Source: Escherichia phage phiK
DNA: 6,089 nucleotides
Sequence record: NC_001730.1
Direction: 5' to 3' (one strand)
The first letter of the stretch is position 1. The number at the start of each line of letters is the position of its first letter. Of the stretch, positions 64 to 5,090 are shown piece after piece. Both the position numbers and the translations under genes were made by a program. The notes under the pieces are model-generated. The model was given only the letters and a program-made list of their open reading frames with translations, had not been told where the DNA came from and did no database searches.

Positions 64-432
64 ATGAAGCCCGCTCACTGTCTTACTCATCCCGTACTTG
101 GTTCATGGTTTTTTAAGTGTCCCGTTTATATCCGTTATGAGCACCTTCATCACGGTCGTCTTATCAAGGTTCGCGCTGTTCGTGATTTGTCCCCGCGTCA
201 GCAGCTTATTGCTAACCCTAAAAATTGCTTTGACGTTGTTATTGCTGAGATTGATGTTACTTATGGCTCCATTACTTGGTTTGACTATGAGCATGAGGAG
301 TATGATGAGTTTGAGCCTGATGTTATAAATGGCCTCGTTAACTATATTGATATTCCTCACGTCATTCGTTCTGAGGAAGACCCTACTGTTTCTGTTGATG
401 ATATGGATTGGCTTTATGAAATTGCGGAGTAA
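64..432 (+). CDS. Hypothetical protein (about 122 aa), basic His/Cys-containing N-terminal half and strongly acidic C-terminal half; first ORF of the H-A spacer module
   Basis: ATG 64 preceded by AGGAG at 53-57 (6-nt spacing); stop TAA 430-432. Third codon positions are about 55-60% T by hand count, the same bias as canonical microvirus genes. No similarity to proteins A-H that I can recognise. Confidence 0.5.
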   Translation: MKPAHCLTHPVLGSWFFKCPVYIRYEHLHHGRLIKVRAVRDLSPRQQLIANPKNCFDVVIAEIDVTYGSITWFDYEHEEYDEFEPDVINGLVNYIDIPHVIRSEEDPTVSVDDMDWLYEIAE

Positions 433-757: not shown

Positions 758-2242
758 ATGGCTACCGAAATCTTTTCTGATGTTGTTAAATCTGTTTGGT
801 CGCACGCTACGGCTAAGCACGCCCATCTTCGTATGGCTGTTCAGGTTGATAATCGTAGTCGCCTTCTTTCTGATTTGGTTTACCAGTTGGAAAAACGCCT
901 CTCCGAAGAGACTCATCTGGATGATGAGACTTATGCCCTTTATGAATCTCAGACTGGCCTTTTGGAAGACCATATGGCACTGGTTCGGAAGTGTGCAGCC
1001 CAACTTGATAATAGTAACACTATAGACCACCGCACCCCGTTGGACCCTGAATGTGTTTTTCTTTTTGAGATGATTTGTCCAGGTGTCCGCTATGGTAAGA
1101 CGCTTAATTCGCTTTGGAGTAAGTATGCTGCCCAGTGGCCTGAGAAATTGATTCGTCAGGAGCTCGACATGGTCAAGCCTTTATCCTTTAAGGATGAGGT
1201 TGCCAAGTACATGGAAAAAATGCAGGAAAAAACACGCAAAAACCGCATGACTCAGAAAGTTATCAATGAGATGCGTATTGCTCACCAGAAAGGCTGGTTC
1301 TTTGTGTTTGACACGTTGACCCTTGCCGATGACCGTTTGCAGGCATTCAATGAAAACCCCAATGCTCTTCGTGATTATTTTAGGACTGTTGGTCGAGCTG
1401 TTCTGCGCGCTGAAGGTCGTTCGGTTAAGGATTCCTACAACGACTGCTATCGCTATCTTTGTGTGCCGGAGTTTGGAGGTCAGCACGGTCGTCTTCATTG
1501 GCACGTTGTGCATATGGTGCGGACTCTTCCTTTGGGAAGTCATGACCCTAACTTCGGTCGCCCGGTACGTAATTATCGCCAGATTAACTCGTTCCGTGGC
1601 ATGTGGCCCTATGGCTTTACGCAACCGATAGCCGTTCGTTATCAACATGACGCTTATTCTCGCAAAGGTTGGTTATGGCCTGTTGACAAATCAGGAAAAG
1701 CAATGCAGAGTAAGCCGTATCAGGCGGTCGCATGGTATGTGACCAAGTATGTAGCTAAGCAATCTGACCAGCGTCAGAAGGCTATTACCGAGAGACAAAA
1801 GAAATGCAAGAATCCATTAATGGCAATCTGTCTGAAGAAAGAATTTCGGGTGCGCAGCAGCCGGAAGCTTGGAATGGAGCTCCCGTCAATGGCTCACCTG
1901 AGCAACAAAGTGCTTCTGGAGCTGAGTCGAATCAGCTTCGATTCCAGTCCTCTTTATCAGATAGTGAAAGAGAACGCCAAAAAGCAACTGACCTTGAACA
2001 TCGGCGCGCTGCCTTTGCACGTCATTTTGGATGTGCGCCCGGAAGTGAGAAGCATGTTGAAAGCTATTCGTCGTTTGATGAAAAAGACACCAGAGTTCAA
2101 CTGGCAGAGTTCTATCGCTTCAATGACGGTCACCTTAAAAAATGGGGATATTTCTGATGAAGCACGTCAATACATTATTGATGCAGGAATTACGCCTACT
2201 GATTTGCGAGCTAAAGCGACTCAAACTTTCGGCGGTAAGTGA
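758..2242 (+). CDS. A: Gene A protein, rolling-circle replication initiator (HUH endonuclease), 494 aa
   Basis: ATG 758, stop TGA 2240-2242. Translation aligns with phiX174 A protein from ...DNSNTIDHR... onward: WFFVFDTLTLADDRL, HUH motif GRLHWHVVHM, paired catalytic tyrosines in YVTKYVAK, C-terminal ...ASMT...GGK. N-terminal 80 residues are divergent, as is usual for this family. Confidence 0.95.
   Translation: MATEIFSDVVKSVWSHATAKHAHLRMAVQVDNRSRLLSDLVYQLEKRLSEETHLDDETYALYESQTGLLEDHMALVRKCAAQLDNSNTIDHRTPLDPECVFLFEMICPGVRYGKTLNSLWSKYAAQWPEKLIRQELDMVKPLSFKDEVAKYMEKMQEKTRKNRMTQKVINEMRIAHQKGWFFVFDTLTLADDRLQAFNENPNALRDYFRTVGRAVLRAEGRSVKDSYNDCYRYLCVPEFGGQHGRLHWHVVHMVRTLPLGSHDPNFGRPVRNYRQINSFRGMWPYGFTQPIAVRYQHDAYSRKGWLWPVDKSGKAMQSKPYQAVAWYVTKYVAKQSDQRQKAITERQKKCKNPLMAICLKKEFRVRSSRKLGMELPSMAHLSNKVLLELSRISFDSSPLYQIVKENAKKQLTLNIGALPLHVILDVRPEVRSMLKAIRRLMKKTPEFNWQSSIASMTVTLKNGDISDEARQYIIDAGITPTDLRAKATQTFGGK
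1001..1030 (+). other. Viral (+) strand origin of rolling-circle replication (A-protein recognition and nick site)
   Basis: CAACTTGATAATAGTAACACTATAGACCAC matches the phiX174 origin 30-mer as I recall it (CAACTTGATATTAATAACACTATAGACCAC) at 28/30, both differences in the AT-rich spacer. Lies inside gene A at the homologous codon position (LDNSNTIDH). Expected nick between G1007 and A1008. Confidence 0.85.
1211..2242 (+). CDS. A*: A* protein, in-frame internal restart within gene A (candidate)
   Basis: In-frame ATGs at 1211 and 1220 (MEKMQEKTRKNRM...) align with the phiX174 A* start (MKSRRGFAIQRLMNAMRQAHADGWF versus MQEKTRKNRMTQKVINEMRIAHQKGWF); GGATGAGG-like SD at about 1193-1199. Inferred by homology; which ATG is used is unknown. 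Confidence 0.35.
   Translation: MEKMQEKTRKNRMTQKVINEMRIAHQKGWFFVFDTLTLADDRLQAFNENPNALRDYFRTVGRAVLRAEGRSVKDSYNDCYRYLCVPEFGGQHGRLHWHVVHMVRTLPLGSHDPNFGRPVRNYRQINSFRGMWPYGFTQPIAVRYQHDAYSRKGWLWPVDKSGKAMQSKPYQAVAWYVTKYVAKQSDQRQKAITERQKKCKNPLMAICLKKEFRVRSSRKLGMELPSMAHLSNKVLLELSRISFDSSPLYQIVKENAKKQLTLNIGALPLHVILDVRPEVRSMLKAIRRLMKKTPEFNWQSSIASMTVTLKNGDISDEARQYIIDAGITPTDLRAKATQTFGGK
1804..2157 (+). CDS. B: Gene B protein, internal scaffolding protein, 117 aa, overprinted within gene A in a different frame
   Basis: ATG 1804, stop TGA 2155-2157. C-terminus ...RVQLAEFYRFNDGHLKKWGYF matches phiX174 B ...RIQPAEFYRFHDAEVNTFGYF; acidic, low-complexity N-terminal region typical of B. Confidence 0.9.
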   Translation: MQESINGNLSEERISGAQQPEAWNGAPVNGSPEQQSASGAESNQLRFQSSLSDSERERQKATDLEHRRAAFARHFGCAPGSEKHVESYSSFDEKDTRVQLAEFYRFNDGHLKKWGYF

Positions 2243-2318: not shown

Positions 2319-2475
2319 GCAGTTGATGTTTCTTACAAAAGCTGATTTTACCAACGATGACGAGAAATGGCTTAATGCCTTTGGTAATCTTCTCCGTCAG
2401 TGGTTTCAGATTGAAGATTGGAAAGGCAATCATAAAAAATTGCTTGACGACTTGAAAAGACGTGATTATCTTTGA
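2269..2475 (+). CDS. C: Gene C protein (DNA maturation / switch to ssDNA synthesis), 68 aa from the ATG
   Basis: ATG 2269 with AGGAG at 2257-2261 (7-nt spacing); stop TGA 2473-2475. Matches phiX174 C (..KWLNMLGTFVKDWF.. versus ..KWLNAFGNLLRQWF..). An alternative GTG start at 2239 overlaps the A stop (GTGA), which is where the phiX174 C start sits. Confidence 0.8.
   Translation: MLSSTRYYASYRATLTKQLMFLTKADFTNDDEKWLNAFGNLLRQWFQIEDWKGNHKKLLDDLKRRDYL
2445..2472 (+). promoter_or_regulatory. Candidate PD-like promoter inside the 3' end of gene C (TTGACG N16 TATCTT)
   Basis: -35-like TTGACG 2445-2450, -10-like TATCTT 2467-2472, about 20 nt upstream of the D Shine-Dalgarno. phiX174 has PD at the equivalent position. 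Motif match only. Confidence 0.25.
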
Positions 2476-2501
2476 CTCGAATCTTACATAAGGAGTTACT
2501 C

Positions 2502-2954
2502 ATGAATATTGTTTCTGATGTTAATTACGCCACTTCTGTTGCTGCTCTTCGCATGTTACAGGCTAGTTCTGTTCTGGATATCACCGAGGAAGATTTTGAC
2601 TTCCTGACTGGTGATAAGATTTGGATTGCTACTGACCGCAACCGTGCGCGTCGCTGTGTAGAGGCTTGTGTTTATGGAACGCTGGACTTTGTCGGCTATC
2701 CTCGCTTTCCTGCTCCTGTTGAGTTTATTGCTGCCGTCATTGCTTATTATGTTCATCCCGTCAACATTCAGACAGCATGCCTCGTTATGGAAGGCGCGGA
2801 GTTTAGCGAAAACATTATTAATGGCGTCGAGCGCCCGGTTAACGCCGCTGAGCTCTTCGCGTACACCCTGCGTATTAAGGCAGGATTCAAAGAAACTGTA
2901 ATTGATGCCGAAGAGAATGCTCGTCAGAAATTACGCGCAAATGGGTTGAAATGA
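2502..2954 (+). CDS. D: Gene D protein, external scaffolding protein, 150 aa
   Basis: ATG 2502 with TAAGGAG at 2489-2495; stop TGA 2952-2954. Near-identical blocks to phiX174 D: WIATDR.RARRCVEACVYGTLDFVGYPRFPAPVEFIAAVIAYYVHPVNIQTAC, ENIINGVERPV. The ORF-track start at 2472 is a TTG extension. Confidence 0.95.
   Translation: MNIVSDVNYATSVAALRMLQASSVLDITEEDFDFLTGDKIWIATDRNRARRCVEACVYGTLDFVGYPRFPAPVEFIAAVIAYYVHPVNIQTACLVMEGAEFSENIINGVERPVNAAELFAYTLRIKAGFKETVIDAEENARQKLRANGLK
2674..2901 (+). CDS. E: Gene E lysis protein, 75 aa, overprinted in the +1 frame of gene D
   Basis: ATG 2674 (GAGG at 2661-2664); stop TAA 2899-2901. N-terminal TM domain MERWTLSAILAFLLLLSLLLPSLLIMFIPSTF is near-identical to phiX174 E (MVRWTLWDTLAFLLLLSLLLPSLLIMFIPSTF), including the proline at position 21. 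Confidence 0.85.
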   Translation: MERWTLSAILAFLLLLSLLLPSLLIMFIPSTFRQHASLWKARSLAKTLLMASSARLTPLSSSRTPCVLRQDSKKL

Positions 2955-2955
2955 T

Positions 2956-3030
2956 ATGAAAAAAGCACGTCGTTCTCCTAGTCGTCGTAAAGGTGCTCGC
3001 CTCTGGTATGTAGGCGGTTCTCAGTTTTAA
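2956..3030 (+). CDS. J: Gene J protein, small basic DNA-binding/packaging protein, 24 aa
   Basis: ATG 2956, stop TAA 3028-3030. MKKARRSPSRRKGARLWYVGGSQF shares the C-terminal KGARLWYVGG.QF with phiX174 J. The short 24-aa form is characteristic of the G4/alpha3 group. Absent from the ORF track only because of length. Confidence 0.9.
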   Translation: MKKARRSPSRRKGARLWYVGGSQF

Positions 3031-3032
3031 TT

Positions 3033-3062
3033 ATGGGCCTTCGGGCCCCTTAAGGATTATTA
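3033..3062 (+). promoter_or_regulatory. J-F intercistronic hairpin (GGGCC-TTCG-GGCCC) plus AAGGA ribosome-binding site for F
   Basis: GGGCC 3035-3039 pairs with GGCCC 3044-3048 across a TTCG tetraloop; AAGGA 3052-3056 sits 6 nt before the F ATG. phiX174 has a comparable GC hairpin in its J-F spacer (TJ terminator / mRNA-stabilising element). Confidence 0.5.
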
Positions 3063-4358
3063 ATGTCTAATGTACAAACTTCAGCTGAACGTGAAATTGT
3101 TGACCTCTCTCATCTTGCTTTTGACTGTGGCATGATTGGTCGCTTGAAAACTGTTTCATGGACTCCTGTTATCGCTGGCGATTCCTTTGAGCTTGATGCT
3201 GTTGGTGCTTTGCGTCTTTCTCCTCTGCGTCGTGGTTTAGCCATTGATTCTAAGGTTGACTTTTTCACTTTCTATATTCCGCATCGTCATGTTTATGGTG
3301 ATCAGTGGATTCAATTTATGCGTGATGGTGTTGATGCTTCGCCGCTTCCTTCCGTTACTACTACTAAGTATCCGGATGATGCTGGTTATGTTGGTACTAT
3401 TGTTCCTAAGAGCAACCGTATTCCTAAGTTTTTGCATCAGTCTTATCTGAATATTTATAATAACTATTTCCGTGCGCCGTGGATGCCTGAGCGTACTGAA
3501 GCTAATCCTTCAAACTTAGATCGTGATGATTCTCGTTATGGATTCCGTTGTTGCCATCTTAAAACTATTTGGTCTGCTCCTCTTCCTCCGGAAACTAAGC
3601 TCGCTGAGCAAATGGGCATTGAAAGCAATTCCATTGATATTATGGGTTTGCAGGCCGCTTATGCGCAGCTTCACACTGAGCAGGAGCGTACTTATTTTAT
3701 GCAGCGTTACCGTGATGTTATCTCCAGCTTTGGCGGTTCAACCTCCTATGATGCCGATAACCGACCGTTGCTTGTTATGCATACCGATTTTTGGGCTTCC
3801 GGTTACGACGTTGACGGTACCGACCAATCTTCCCTTGGACAGTTTTCGGGGCGAGTTCAACAGACGTTTAAACACTCAGTGCCGCGATTCTTCGTGCCTG
3901 AGCATGGTGTCATGATGACTTTGATGCTGGTTCGCTTCCCGCCTATCAGTCCTTTGGAGCATCATTATCTTGTTGGTCGTAATAATTTGACTTATACCGA
4001 CCTTGCTGGTGACCCGGCTTTGATTGGTAATTTGCCGCCGCGTGAGATTTCTTATCAGGACCTTTTCCGTGATGGTCGCCCGGGCATTAAGATTAAGGTT
4101 GCCGAGTCTATCTGGTATCGTACTCATCCGGATTATGTTAACTACAAGTATCAGTTACTTGAGGGTTTCCCGTTCCTTGATGATGCGCCCGGTACGACTA
4201 GTGGTGATGACCTTCAGAAGGCTATTCTCATTGACCATAATGACTATAATGCCTGTTTCCAGTCTCAGCAGTTGCTTCAGTGGAATAATCAGGCTCGTTA
4301 TAATGTTAATGTTTATCGCCATATTCCTACTGTTCGTGATTCTATTATGACCTCTTAA
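3063..4358 (+). CDS. F: Gene F protein, major capsid protein, 431 aa
   Basis: ATG 3063, stop TAA 4356-4358. Extensive identity to phiX174 F: MSN.QT.AER, TPVIAGDSFE.DAVGALRLSPLRRGLAIDS, YGFRCCHLK, IDIMGLQAAYA, SGYDVDGTDQ.SLGQFSGRVQQT, LPPREIS, QLLQWN, TRDSIMTS. Confidence 0.97.
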   Translation: MSNVQTSAEREIVDLSHLAFDCGMIGRLKTVSWTPVIAGDSFELDAVGALRLSPLRRGLAIDSKVDFFTFYIPHRHVYGDQWIQFMRDGVDASPLPSVTTTKYPDDAGYVGTIVPKSNRIPKFLHQSYLNIYNNYFRAPWMPERTEANPSNLDRDDSRYGFRCCHLKTIWSAPLPPETKLAEQMGIESNSIDIMGLQAAYAQLHTEQERTYFMQRYRDVISSFGGSTSYDADNRPLLVMHTDFWASGYDVDGTDQSSLGQFSGRVQQTFKHSVPRFFVPEHGVMMTLMLVRFPPISPLEHHYLVGRNNLTYTDLAGDPALIGNLPPREISYQDLFRDGRPGIKIKVAESIWYRTHPDYVNYKYQLLEGFPFLDDAPGTTSGDDLQKAILIDHNDYNACFQSQQLLQWNNQARYNVNVYRHIPTVRDSIMTS

Positions 4359-4361
4359 TTC

Positions 4362-4391
4362 ATGGGCCTTCGGGCCCATTAAGGATTTTTT
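4362..4391 (+). promoter_or_regulatory. F-G intercistronic hairpin (ATGGGCC-TTCG-GGCCCAT) plus AAGGA ribosome-binding site and T6 run
   Basis: 7-bp stem 4362-4368/4373-4379 with TTCG tetraloop; AAGGA 4381-4385; TTTTTT 4386-4391 directly before the G ATG. 27/30 identical to the J-F module at 3033-3062. Confidence 0.5.
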
Positions 4392-4955
4392 ATGTATCAA
4401 ATTTTTGTTACTAAGCATGATACCGCCATTCAGACCTCCCGTTTTTCTGTTACTGGCAGTATCACTCCTGTTGCGCCTACTGGTAATATCCCTGTTATCA
4501 ATACTGGTAATATTACTGCTGAGCATGCTGTTGTTAGTCTTTATGCTAATTTGACTGCTGGCACCTCTTCTGATGGTTCTTTTATTGTTGCTATGAAGGT
4601 TGACACTTCTCCTGCTGACCCCAATTGCGTTATCTCTGCTGGTGTTAACCTTAGTTTTGCTGGTACCTCATACCCGATTGTTGGCATTGTTCGTTTTGAG
4701 TCTGCTTCTGACCAGCCCACTTCTATTGCTGGTAGCCAGATTGAGCATTACCCAATTGAAATGTCTGTAGGTTCTGGTGGTGTTTGTTCTGCTCGCGATT
4801 GCGTTACTGTTGATATTCATCCTCGCGCTTTTGGCAATAATGTTTTTGTTGGCGTGATTTGTTCTAGTGCTAAATGGACCTCCGGTCGTGTGCTTGGTAC
4901 CATCGCTACGACTCAGGTTATTCGTGAGTATCAGGTCCTTCAGCCGCTTAAATAA
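4392..4955 (+). CDS. G: Gene G protein, major spike protein, 187 aa
   Basis: ATG 4392, stop TAA 4953-4955. Matches phiX174 G in conserved blocks: VRFES, KDCVT.D..PR..GNNV.VG and C-terminal L.QVI.E...LQPLK. Confidence 0.95.
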
Positions 4956-5090
4956 AAGGCCGCCGCACTCCTGGTTATGTGTCTGCCCAGTGTAGGGCGG
5001 ACCGAGCCATACGGAGATACCCGATAAACTAGGAACGTGGAAGGCGTTAGCCGCCTTCCCTCCTGCTAAGCCCAAAAAGGAGCTTACAAT
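4956..5090 (+). other. Structured GC-rich G-H intergenic region; candidate complementary (-) strand origin recognised by DnaG primase
   Basis: 135-nt non-coding spacer (I recall about 11 nt in phiX174) with two stable hairpins: 4981-5002 (GTCTGCCC/GGGCGGAC, 6-nt loop, one G-U pair) and 5039-5059 (GGAAGGCG/CGCCTTCC, 5-nt loop). Ends with the H SD AGGAG at 5078-5082. G4-type phages carry a primase-dependent origin in a hairpin-rich spacer between late genes. Assignment here is by analogy. Confidence 0.4.

What the first reader, a model, noticed from the sequence alone, without database searches (positions are those of the whole stretch)
1190..1225. Two closely spaced in-frame ATGs for A* initiation
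ATG 1211 and ATG 1220 (M-E-K-M) follow a GGATGAGG purine tract and align with the phiX174 A* N-terminus. A* would share frame and C-terminus with A and is not separable by ORF finding. Whether this phage makes A*, and from which ATG, cannot be read from sequence alone.
Basis: partly seen in the sequence, partly recalled or inferred. Interest (0 to 1): 0.2.

Follow-up and report, generated by a model that had tools for sequence, protein, structure and literature searches.

The report
Candidate A* start in phage phiK
Two in-frame ATGs inside the replication gene A of coliphage phiK are the most plausible place for a shorter "A*" protein to start, but the ribosome-binding module that makes A* in phiX174 and G4 is not conserved here, so it remains unproven whether this phage makes A* at all.

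Summary
The window is the complete 6089-nt genome of microvirus phiK (alpha3 group). ATG 1211 and ATG 1220 exist as described and are in frame with gene A (758-2242), as codons 152 and 155. They lie 5 and 2 codons upstream of the codon homologous to the phiX174/G4 A* initiator.

That homologous codon is GAA (E157) in phiK. The phiX/G4 Shine-Dalgarno GGAGG corresponds to GGAAA here, so the ancestral initiation module is gone.

Three more in-frame ATGs lie nearby: 1169, 1247 and 1271. Only the St-1 record annotates A* in this clade, at 1271 and by homology alone. That is the worst candidate.

A crude ribosome-binding model applied across 17 clade members ranks 1220 and 1211 best, in the same range as the proven phiX and G4 sites. 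1220 has no SD but lies in open, A-rich mRNA. 1211 has GAGGT 10 nt upstream.

Across about 18 bullavirus-like lineages, internal SD+ATG pairs occur at different codons or not at all.

Verdict: a real but ordinary feature. It is a plausible, unverified, non-homologous A*-type internal start. Low interest.

The parts
758..2242 (+). Gene A: replication initiation protein, 494 aa, HUH nuclease. It exactly matches phiK protein A (CAA42884 / P25244).
1001..1030 (+). Viral-strand origin 30-mer CAACTTGATAATAGTAACACTATAGACCAC (28 of 30 identical to the phiX174 origin by inspection). It lies about 180 nt upstream of the candidate starts, as in phiX174.
   Evidence: Synonymous diversity is almost zero here (pi 0.011 against a gene mean of 0.155).
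1196..1200 (+). SD-like GAGGT formed by codons E147 and V148, 10 nt upstream of ATG 1211. Pairing to the 16S 3' end is about -6.3 kcal/mol.
   Evidence: GAG is present in 15 of 16 unique clade sequences and GTT in 15 of 16. One natural variant has GAA and one protein variant has E147D (P0007).
1211..1213 (+). In-frame ATG, codon 152 (codon -28 relative to W180). Candidate A* start giving 343 aa, 39.8 kDa.
1213..1217 (+). GGAAA, the positional homologue of the phiX174/G4 A* Shine-Dalgarno GGAGG. It is degraded in phiK. Most clade relatives read GGAGA, but that is only 3 nt from ATG 1220.
1220..1222 (+). In-frame ATG, codon 155 (codon -25). Candidate A* start giving 340 aa, 39.4 kDa. It has no usable SD but lies in open, A-rich mRNA.
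1226..1228 (+). GAA (E157), the codon positionally homologous to the phiX174 (4497) and G4 (698) A* initiator ATG. It is not a start codon in phiK or in any alpha3-group relative.
1208..1270 (+). A-rich stretch (22 A in the 40 nt from 1211 to 1250) with very little predicted structure. 60-nt windows starting at 1186-1187 and 1208-1210 are among the 10 least structured in gene A, together with windows just upstream of the gene B start.
1158..1171 (+). It is the best-spaced SD in phiK, but the AGGAG is present in only 10 of 16 clade sequences and the surrounding mRNA is strongly structured (5th percentile).
1247..1249 (+). In-frame ATG, codon 164. It has no SD and a poor model score.
1271..1273 (+). 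In-frame ATG, codon 172, the position annotated as the A* start in the St-1 records. M172 is also conserved in phiX174 and G4, where it is not the A* start. It has no SD and the worst model score, it is TTG (Leu) in one natural relative, and starting here would remove almost all of helix 147-177.

Best explanation
Gene A of phiK probably supports low-level internal, in-frame translation initiation at ATG 1211 and/or ATG 1220. The product would be an N-terminally truncated A*-like protein of 343 or 340 aa. It would lack the first 151-154 residues but keep most of helix 147-177 and the whole HUH nuclease core.

The site is not the phiX174/G4 A* site. That module (GGAGG + 8 nt + ATG) has decayed here to GGAAA ... 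GAA.

Initiation would instead depend on one of two things:
- a short SD (GAGGT) 10 nt upstream of ATG 1211, the same SD type and long spacing as gene A's own start in this phage; or
- SD-independent 30S loading on the unusually unstructured, A-rich mRNA around ATG 1220.

Shown here: the sequence anatomy, its conservation within the clade, the model ranking and the structural compatibility. Inferred: that ribosomes actually start here, and that the product behaves like phiX174 A* (inhibition of DNA replication, packaging fidelity).
For: - Position: the two ATGs are 2 and 5 codons from the codon homologous to the proven A* start. The products are 340 and 343 aa, against 341 aa in phiX174 and G4.
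- RBS model: across 17 alpha3-group sequences, codons 155 and 152 have the best median scores (2.3 and 3.9). Codons 138, 164 and 172 score 6.1, 8.3 and 8.5. phiX A* scores 4.6 and G4 A* 2.6. The model places the highly expressed genes F, D, C, B, G and H at ranks 1-14 of 164 ATGs.
- SD: GAGGT is present in 15 of 16 unique clade sequences. Gene A's own start uses GAGG + 10 nt.
- mRNA openness: windows at 1186-1270 are among the 10 least structured in gene A, alongside the region before the proven internal start of gene B.
- Structure: the AF2 model (pLDDT 85, pTM 0.81) puts M152 and M155 near the N-terminal end of helix 147-177, which leads into beta1 of the core. The truncated product would therefore resemble phiX A* in architecture. 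Pfam PF23343 starts at residue 184, and HWHVVH (247) and YVTKY (327) are retained.
- Other lineages: some carry an SD+ATG near this position (P0098: GAGGTG + 6 nt + ATG at codon -29, dG -1.0) or elsewhere in the helix (P0080: AGGAGGT + 8 nt + ATG at -15, dG -7.8). This suggests recurrent selection for a truncated product.
- Literature: the Fane lab describes microvirus A* proteins as 'strongly conserved, unessential'. I could see only the title, in the reference list of PMC13386984.
Against: - The ancestral SD and ATG are both substituted.
- SD pairing is weak: -6.3 kcal/mol at aligned spacing 9-10 for ATG 1211, and essentially none for ATG 1220. phiX174 and G4 have -9.3 at spacing 7.
- There is no detectable suppression of synonymous variation in 1190-1222 (pi 0.189, 55th percentile). 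The same test also fails on the known gene B RBS, so it has little power.
- Natural variants destroy GAGG: GAA in L008, E147D in P0007.
- The four other lineages with Met at codon -25 have no SD before it.
- The depositors of phiK and alpha3, and Rokyta et al. for all their alpha3-like genomes, did not annotate A*. Rokyta et al. did annotate it in phiX-like and G4-like genomes.
- At least one bullavirus-like lineage (P0069) has no ATG, GTG or TTG anywhere in the zone, so A* is not universal.
- The RBS model is crude (roughly +/-2-3 kcal/mol) and ignores the effect of ribosomes translating through the site.
Confidence: 0.5

Rival explanations
1. No A* is made in the alpha3 group. The phiX/G4-type initiation module was lost, or was never present in this lineage. 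The nearby Mets are ordinary residues of helix 147-177, and the GAGGT is a by-product of the conserved K-D-E-V codons.
For: - The homologous SD and ATG are both replaced (GGAAA, GAA).
- A* is not annotated in phiK, alpha3 or any Rokyta-series alpha3-like genome, although the same series annotates it in phiX-like and G4-like genomes.
- The phiX-type Met is absent from about 15 other bullavirus-like lineages, and P0069 has no start codon at all in the zone.
- A* is described as unessential in phiX174 (reference titles seen). The phiX174 saturation-mutagenesis preprint does not list its RBS among the detrimental synonymous sites.
Against: - Two ATGs with model scores as good as the proven phiX and G4 sites lie within 5 codons of the homologous position, in unusually open mRNA.
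- All five Mets are invariant in the clade members examined, except M172.
- The Fane-lab title describes A* as strongly conserved among microviruses.
Confidence: 0.33
2. In phiK specifically, internal initiation occurs at ATG 1169 (codon 138), driven by AGGAG 6 nt upstream. The product would be 357 aa (41.5 kDa) and would start in the loop before helix 147-177.
For: - This is the best canonical SD and spacing of all the candidates in phiK (hyb -6.6, aligned spacing 4).
- M138 is invariant in the clade.
- It lies in a predicted loop (136-146), which is a natural domain boundary.
Against: - The AGGAG is present in only 10 of 16 clade sequences. The others read AAGAG or ATGAG, and one reads AAGGAG.
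- The site lies in one of the most structured parts of the mRNA (60-nt MFE -17.5, 5th percentile), and the clade median model score is 6.1.
- It is 19 codons from the phiX-homologous position.
Confidence: 0.1
3. A* starts at ATG 1271 (codon 172), as annotated in the St-1 records, giving a 323-aa, 37.3-kDa protein.
For: - It is the only A* annotation in the clade (NC_012868 / GQ149088).
- M172 is conserved across phiX, G4 and alpha3.
Against: - The annotation was made by homology only (PMC3324380).
- M172 aligns with an internal Met of phiX and G4 A*, not with their start.
- It has no SD and the worst model score (9.3 in phiK, clade median 8.5, rank 112 of 164).
- It is replaced by TTG (Leu) in the natural relative L037.
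- Starting here would remove 25 of the 31 residues of helix 147-177.
Confidence: 0.05

Closest known systems
phiX174 A* protein (internal in-frame initiation at nt 4497 of gene A)
   Same: The candidate lies in the same gene and frame, and would share the C-terminus. It is at the same place in the protein, the helix preceding beta1 of the HUH core and about 200 nt downstream of the origin. Product size is nearly identical (340-343 aa against 341 aa).
   Different: The start codon is not homologous (2 or 5 codons upstream). The GGAGG + 8 nt SD module is absent. Expression and function are proven for phiX174 and unknown for phiK.
G4 A* protein (start at nt 698)
   Same: As for phiX174. G4 shares the GGAGG + 8 nt + ATG module and the MKSRRGF N-terminus with phiX174.
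   Different: phiK has KMQEKTRK where G4 has ESTMKSRR, and it lacks the strong SD.
St-1 'protein A*' annotation (NC_012868, 1271-2242)
   Same: Same clade, about 94% nucleotide identity, and identical coordinates for gene A.
   Different: It uses ATG 1271 (M172), not 1211 or 1220. It was assigned by homology without experiment, and it is the least plausible candidate by every test made here.
In-frame internal initiation in other rolling-circle replication genes (filamentous phage f1/M13 gene II giving gene X protein, from my own knowledge; plasmid pIGRK with two in-frame Rep proteins, PMC6854812, title seen)
   Same: A full-length initiator nuclease and an N-terminally truncated in-frame product come from one ORF, and the short form modulates replication.
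   Different: These are unrelated protein families. The resemblance is recalled from memory or from a title and was not tested here.

Membership tests
Bullavirinae replication protein A (Phage_GPA, HUH nuclease) | Matches Pfam PF05840 and PF23343 above their curated cut-offs; HUH motif and paired catalytic tyrosines present | tested here: met
   PF05840 scores 203.5 bits (cut-off 31.4) and PF23343 37.4 bits (cut-off 27.8). phrog_713 E = 1.6e-192. HWHVVH is at residue 247 and YVTKY at 327. The protein exactly matches phiK protein A.
Microvirus A* (phiX174-type internal initiation product of gene A) | In-frame start codon inside gene A, downstream of the origin and upstream of the nuclease core, so that the product shares the C-terminus of A | tested here: met
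   ATG 1211 and ATG 1220 are in frame. They lie 181-190 nt after the origin 30-mer and before beta1 (residue 181) and PF23343 (residue 184).
Microvirus A* (phiX174-type internal initiation product of gene A) | Start codon positionally homologous to phiX174 ATG 4497 and G4 ATG 698 | tested here: not met
   The homologous codon is GAA (E157, 1226-1228) in phiK and GAA or GAG in all 16 unique clade sequences.
Microvirus A* (phiX174-type internal initiation product of gene A) | Strong Shine-Dalgarno (GGAGG) 7-8 nt upstream of the internal ATG | tested here: not met
   The homologous bases read GGAAA. The substitute GAGGT lies 10 nt before ATG 1211 (-6.3 against -9.3 kcal/mol). ATG 1220 has none.
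Microvirus A* (phiX174-type internal initiation product of gene A) | Overall initiation potential comparable with the proven A* sites | tested here: inconclusive
   The simplified model gives 1.7 (1220) and 3.9 (1211), against 4.6 (phiX) and 2.6 (G4). The model is crude, and gene A's own start scores 9.6.
Microvirus A* (phiX174-type internal initiation product of gene A) | A shorter A-related polypeptide is actually made in infected cells | not testable with these tools
   No proteomic or gel data for phiK, alpha3 or St-1 were found in the accessible literature.
Microvirus A* (phiX174-type internal initiation product of gene A) | Function: inhibits host or viral DNA replication and supports packaging fidelity | not testable with these tools
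   Described for phiX174 in PMC13386984. Nothing is available for the alpha3 group.

The most novel reading that the evidence does not exclude
The A* initiation module is evolutionarily labile rather than 'strongly conserved'. Across bullavirus-like phages the internal SD+ATG has been lost and rebuilt at different codons of the same helix:
- codon -23 in phiX174, G4 and L034;
- codon -15, with AGG AGG arginine codons forming AGGAGGT, in the P0080 lineage;
- codon -29 or -28 in P0098 and the alpha3 group;
- no start codon at all in P0069.

This would mean either that selection acts on having a truncated replication protein rather than on a particular site, or that whole clades, possibly including alpha3 and phiK, do without A*.
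Probability: 0.3. Interest if true: 0.4.

Novelty: new member of a known kind. Interest (0 to 1): 0.2.

Why it matters
A* is a classic example of one gene yielding two proteins by internal initiation. Recent phiX174 work gives it a role in keeping DNA synthesis and packaging in step. Alpha3-group phages package the largest genomes in the subfamily into a capsid of similar size, so whether they make A*, and from where, bears on how general that role is.

In practical terms, the one existing A* annotation in this clade (St-1, 1271) is probably wrong and should not be propagated. If an A* feature is added to phiK or alpha3 records, 1211 or 1220 is the better-supported coordinate, and it should be marked as putative.

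Tried and rejected
1. Literature. Rokyta 2006 (PMC1347346), Doore 2014 (MBE), Roznowski 2020 (PMC6955274) and Love 2024 (PMC10949513) are not held. Eight full-text searches found no statement on A* in alpha3, phiK or St-1. Four further search attempts were rejected for term syntax.
2. Exact look-up of the five possible truncated products. None is in the 15-billion-protein collection.
3. Synonymous-constraint scan in 16 unique clade sequences. It detects the origin but not the known gene B RBS, so its null result for the A* zone is uninformative.
4. Met clustering at 138-172. It is nominally enriched (P = 0.007) but not significant as a scan statistic (P = 0.21).
5. The idea that Met at codon -25 (phiK M155) is a conserved alternative start, because four other lineages share it. 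Rejected: none of them has an SD upstream.
6. Metagenome and IMG/VR scans for intermediate lineages. The alpha3 group forms one 90% cluster and the next relatives are at or below 48% identity, so the decay of the site cannot be traced stepwise.
7. Other readings of 1190-1225.
   - No other + strand ORF of 30 aa or more overlaps it. The minus-strand ORFs 1156-1248 and 1181-1648 are mechanical, since all annotated microvirus genes in the related records lie on the + strand.
   - The A6 runs do not form an in-frame X_XXY_YYZ slippery heptamer and are not conserved in relatives (GAG AAG) (by inspection).
   - The minus-strand terminator-like hit at 1249-1233 is within chance expectation.
Full report
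**Identity of the window.** The 6089-nt window is a complete microvirus genome with the gene order A, B, K, C, D, E, J, F, G, H. Its gene A (758-2242, 494 aa) is about 94% identical in DNA to alpha3 and St-1. The protein exactly matches protein A of phage phiK (CAA42884 / NP_043942 / P25244), which sits on a 6089-nt contig. The viral-strand origin 30-mer lies at 1001-1030.

**The observation.** ATG 1211 and ATG 1220 exist and are in frame with A, as codons 152 and 155 (M-E-K-M). The 'GGATGAGG tract' (1192-1199) is the codon string AAG GAT GAG GTT. K-D-E is also conserved in phiX174 and G4, so the tract is primarily coding sequence. Its only SD-like core is GAGGT (1196-1200), 10 nt before ATG 1211 and 19 nt before ATG 1220.

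- 1169 (M138), preceded by AGGAG at 6 nt;
- 1247 (M164);
- 1271 (M172).

Chance expectation is not negligible:
- P(at least 2 Met within +/-5 codons of the homologous site) = 0.053.
- The five-Met cluster has a scan-statistic P of 0.21.
- SD-like 4-mers precede 14.6% of all ATGs.

**Relation to the proven A* sites.** phiX174 (ATG 4497) and G4 (ATG 698) share a clear module, GGAGG + 8 nt + ATG, which encodes L-E-A/E-S-T-M. The alignment between D146 and W180 is ungapped and anchored by invariant residues. It places that Met on phiK E157 (GAA, 1226-1228) and the GGAGG on phiK GGAAA (1213-1217). The phiX/G4 module is therefore not conserved in phiK. M155 and M152 are 2 and 5 codons upstream of the homologous position. 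All 16 unique alpha3-group sequences have GAA or GAG at codon 157.

**How others annotated it.**
- The original alpha3 record has 10 CDS and no A*.
- phiK has no A* entry.
- The Rokyta-series records annotate gpA* in phiX-like and G4-like genomes but in none of the alpha3-like ones.
- Only St-1 carries an A* feature, at 1271 (M172). It was assigned because 'homologues to all phiX174 genes were found' (PMC3324380).

M172 aligns with an internal Met of phiX and G4 A*, not with their start.

**Initiation potential.** I wrote a simplified thermodynamic RBS score: in-register SD:anti-SD pairing, plus a spacing penalty, plus a start-codon term, plus the cost of unfolding a 71-nt context. It ranks F, D, C, B, G and H at positions 1-14 of the 164 + strand ATGs. 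The weakly expressed or coupled genes A, K, E and J fall mid-table.

| Site | Score (kcal/mol) | Note |
|---|---|---|
| ATG 1220 | 1.7 | rank 18 of 164; essentially no SD, low unfolding cost |
| ATG 1211 | 3.9 | rank 46; pairing -6.3, aligned spacing 9 |
| ATG 1169 | 4.8 | |
| ATG 1247 | 7.7 | |
| ATG 1271 | 9.3 | rank 112 |
| phiX174 A* | 4.6 | pairing -9.3, spacing 7 |
| G4 A* | 2.6 | pairing -9.3, spacing 7 |

The order holds over 17 clade members. Medians are 2.3 (codon 155), 3.9 (152), 6.1 (138), 8.3 (164) and 8.5 (172). Gene A's own start in phiK uses GAGG + 10 nt, the same style as the putative 1211 site.

60-nt windows starting at 1186-1187 and 1208-1210 are among the ten least structured in gene A. 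The top-ten list also includes windows just upstream of the proven internal start of gene B. The phiX and G4 A* sites are not open (23rd percentile) and rely on their strong SD.

**Variation within the clade.**
- The origin shows near-zero synonymous diversity (pi 0.011, against a gene mean of 0.155).
- The 1190-1222 zone is average (0.189, 55th percentile). The known gene B RBS is also average (0.20), so this test lacks the power to detect RBS-level constraint.
- GAG147 and GTT148 are each present in 15 of 16 sequences.
- The AGGAG before ATG 1169 is present in only 10 of 16.
- Codon 172 is TTG (Leu) in L037.
- One protein variant has E147D, which destroys GAGG.

**Comparison across the wider group.** One large protein search returned the alpha3 group as a single 90% cluster (214 members). 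Nothing lies between it and relatives at or below 48% identity, so intermediates are lacking. About 18 bullavirus-like lineages could be codon-aligned:
- GGAGG + 8 nt + ATG at codon -23 is confined to phiX174, G4 and L034/P0057.
- Met at -25 (phiK M155) recurs in P0064, P0066, P0075 and P0098, but without an SD.
- P0098 has GAGGTG + 6 nt + ATG at -29 (score -1.0), next to phiK's -28.
- P0080 has AGGAGGT, made from two AGG arginine codons, + 8 nt + ATG at -15 (score -7.8).
- P0069 has no ATG, GTG or TTG anywhere from -45 to -5.

Internal initiation modules in this helix therefore look lineage-specific and movable, and they are not universal.

**Structure.** An AlphaFold2 model of phiK A (pLDDT 85, pTM 0.81) shows a loop at 136-146, one long helix at 147-177, then beta1 (181-189) of the nuclease core. 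PF23343 starts at residue 184.
- Starts at 152 or 155 keep 26 or 23 of the 31 helix residues, similar to the phiX-equivalent position 157.
- A start at 172 would remove almost the whole helix.
- A start at 138 would fall in the loop.
- All candidate products retain HWHVVH (247) and YVTKY (327).

**Conclusion.** ATG 1211 and ATG 1220 are the best candidates for an A*-type start in phiK and its clade, and both are clearly better than the published St-1 coordinate. They do not continue the phiX/G4 site, their ribosome-binding signals are weak or unconventional, and no annotation or experiment I could access shows that an A* protein exists in this clade.

My probability estimates:

| Hypothesis | Probability |
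|---|---|
| Internal initiation at 1211 and/or 1220 | about 0.5 |
| No A* made | about 0.33 |
| Initiation at 1169 | about 0.1 |
| Initiation at 1271 | about 0.05 |

This is an ordinary, low-interest feature. Its modest added value is the St-1 annotation problem and the lineage-to-lineage mobility of the internal start.

Noticed in passing
L001 (St-1, NC_012868) 1271-2242, equivalent to window 1271-2242: The only A* annotation in the alpha3 group starts at M172. That position has no SD and the worst RBS score, it is Leu (TTG) in a natural relative, and it aligns with an internal Met of phiX and G4 A*. It is probably a mis-annotation that could spread by homology transfer.
   Followed up: yes
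window 64-432, 436-525, 522-734: The long H-A intergenic region holds three tandem + strand ORFs. The middle one is a 29-aa hydrophobic peptide (METVIGKFIALAVVAFMLYGITRLILRFP) preceded by GGAG. Its TGA stop overlaps the GTG start of the next ORF (GTGA), which looks like translational coupling. PMC3324380 mentions putative genes in this region for St-1.
   Followed up: no
window 3035-3048 and 4364-4377: An identical GC hairpin, GGGCCTTCGGGCCC, follows gene J and gene F. Each copy is immediately followed by TAAGGAT and the ATG of the next gene (F at 3063, G at 4392). The repeated unit therefore contains both a hairpin and an RBS. The terminator scan did not flag it because there is no T-run.
   Followed up: no
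window 4956-5090: A 135-nt GC-rich intergenic region lies between G and H and has obvious stem-loop potential. From my own knowledge of G4, alpha3 and St-1, it is probably the primase-dependent complementary-strand origin. I did not analyse it.
   Followed up: no
L050 (P0080 lineage, Logan SRR25948540 contig, 5950 nt), codons -20 to -15 before the GW..FDTLT anchor: Two consecutive AGG arginine codons create AGGAGGT 8 nt before an in-frame ATG inside gene A. This is by far the strongest predicted internal RBS of any lineage examined (model score -7.8), and it lies 8 codons downstream of the phiX A* position.
   Followed up: partly
L046 (P0069 lineage, Logan SRR22420307 contig, 5491 nt): A bullavirus-like gene A has no ATG, GTG or TTG in the 41 codons from -45 to -5 upstream of the nuclease core. 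This lineage cannot make a phiX-type A* from a canonical start codon.
   Followed up: partly
L041 (Pectobacterium phage Mimer, ON872163) 2389-4022, minus strand of the record: Gene A is annotated in three pieces (3069-4022, 2829-3059 labelled gpA*, 2389-3021). tblastn shows one A homologue split between frames near residue 262-291. This suggests a frameshift or a sequencing or annotation artefact, and the 'gpA*' label there is not a phiX-type A*.
   Followed up: partly
one search hit list (for example P0026, P0029, P0035, P0059, P0102, P0122): Many 'homologues' are phiX174 sequences embedded in eukaryotic and bacterial assemblies (Zygosaccharomyces, Colletotrichum, Xanthomonas and others). They are often predicted as fusions with protein H or other phiX genes, which points to sequencing spike-in contamination.
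   Followed up: no
L038 (SKEJ01013411.1), around codons 175-178 of gene A: This alpha3-like metagenome contig has a frame break just before GWFFVFDT. tblastn splits the match into two frames. It is likely an assembly or indel error rather than biology.
   Followed up: no
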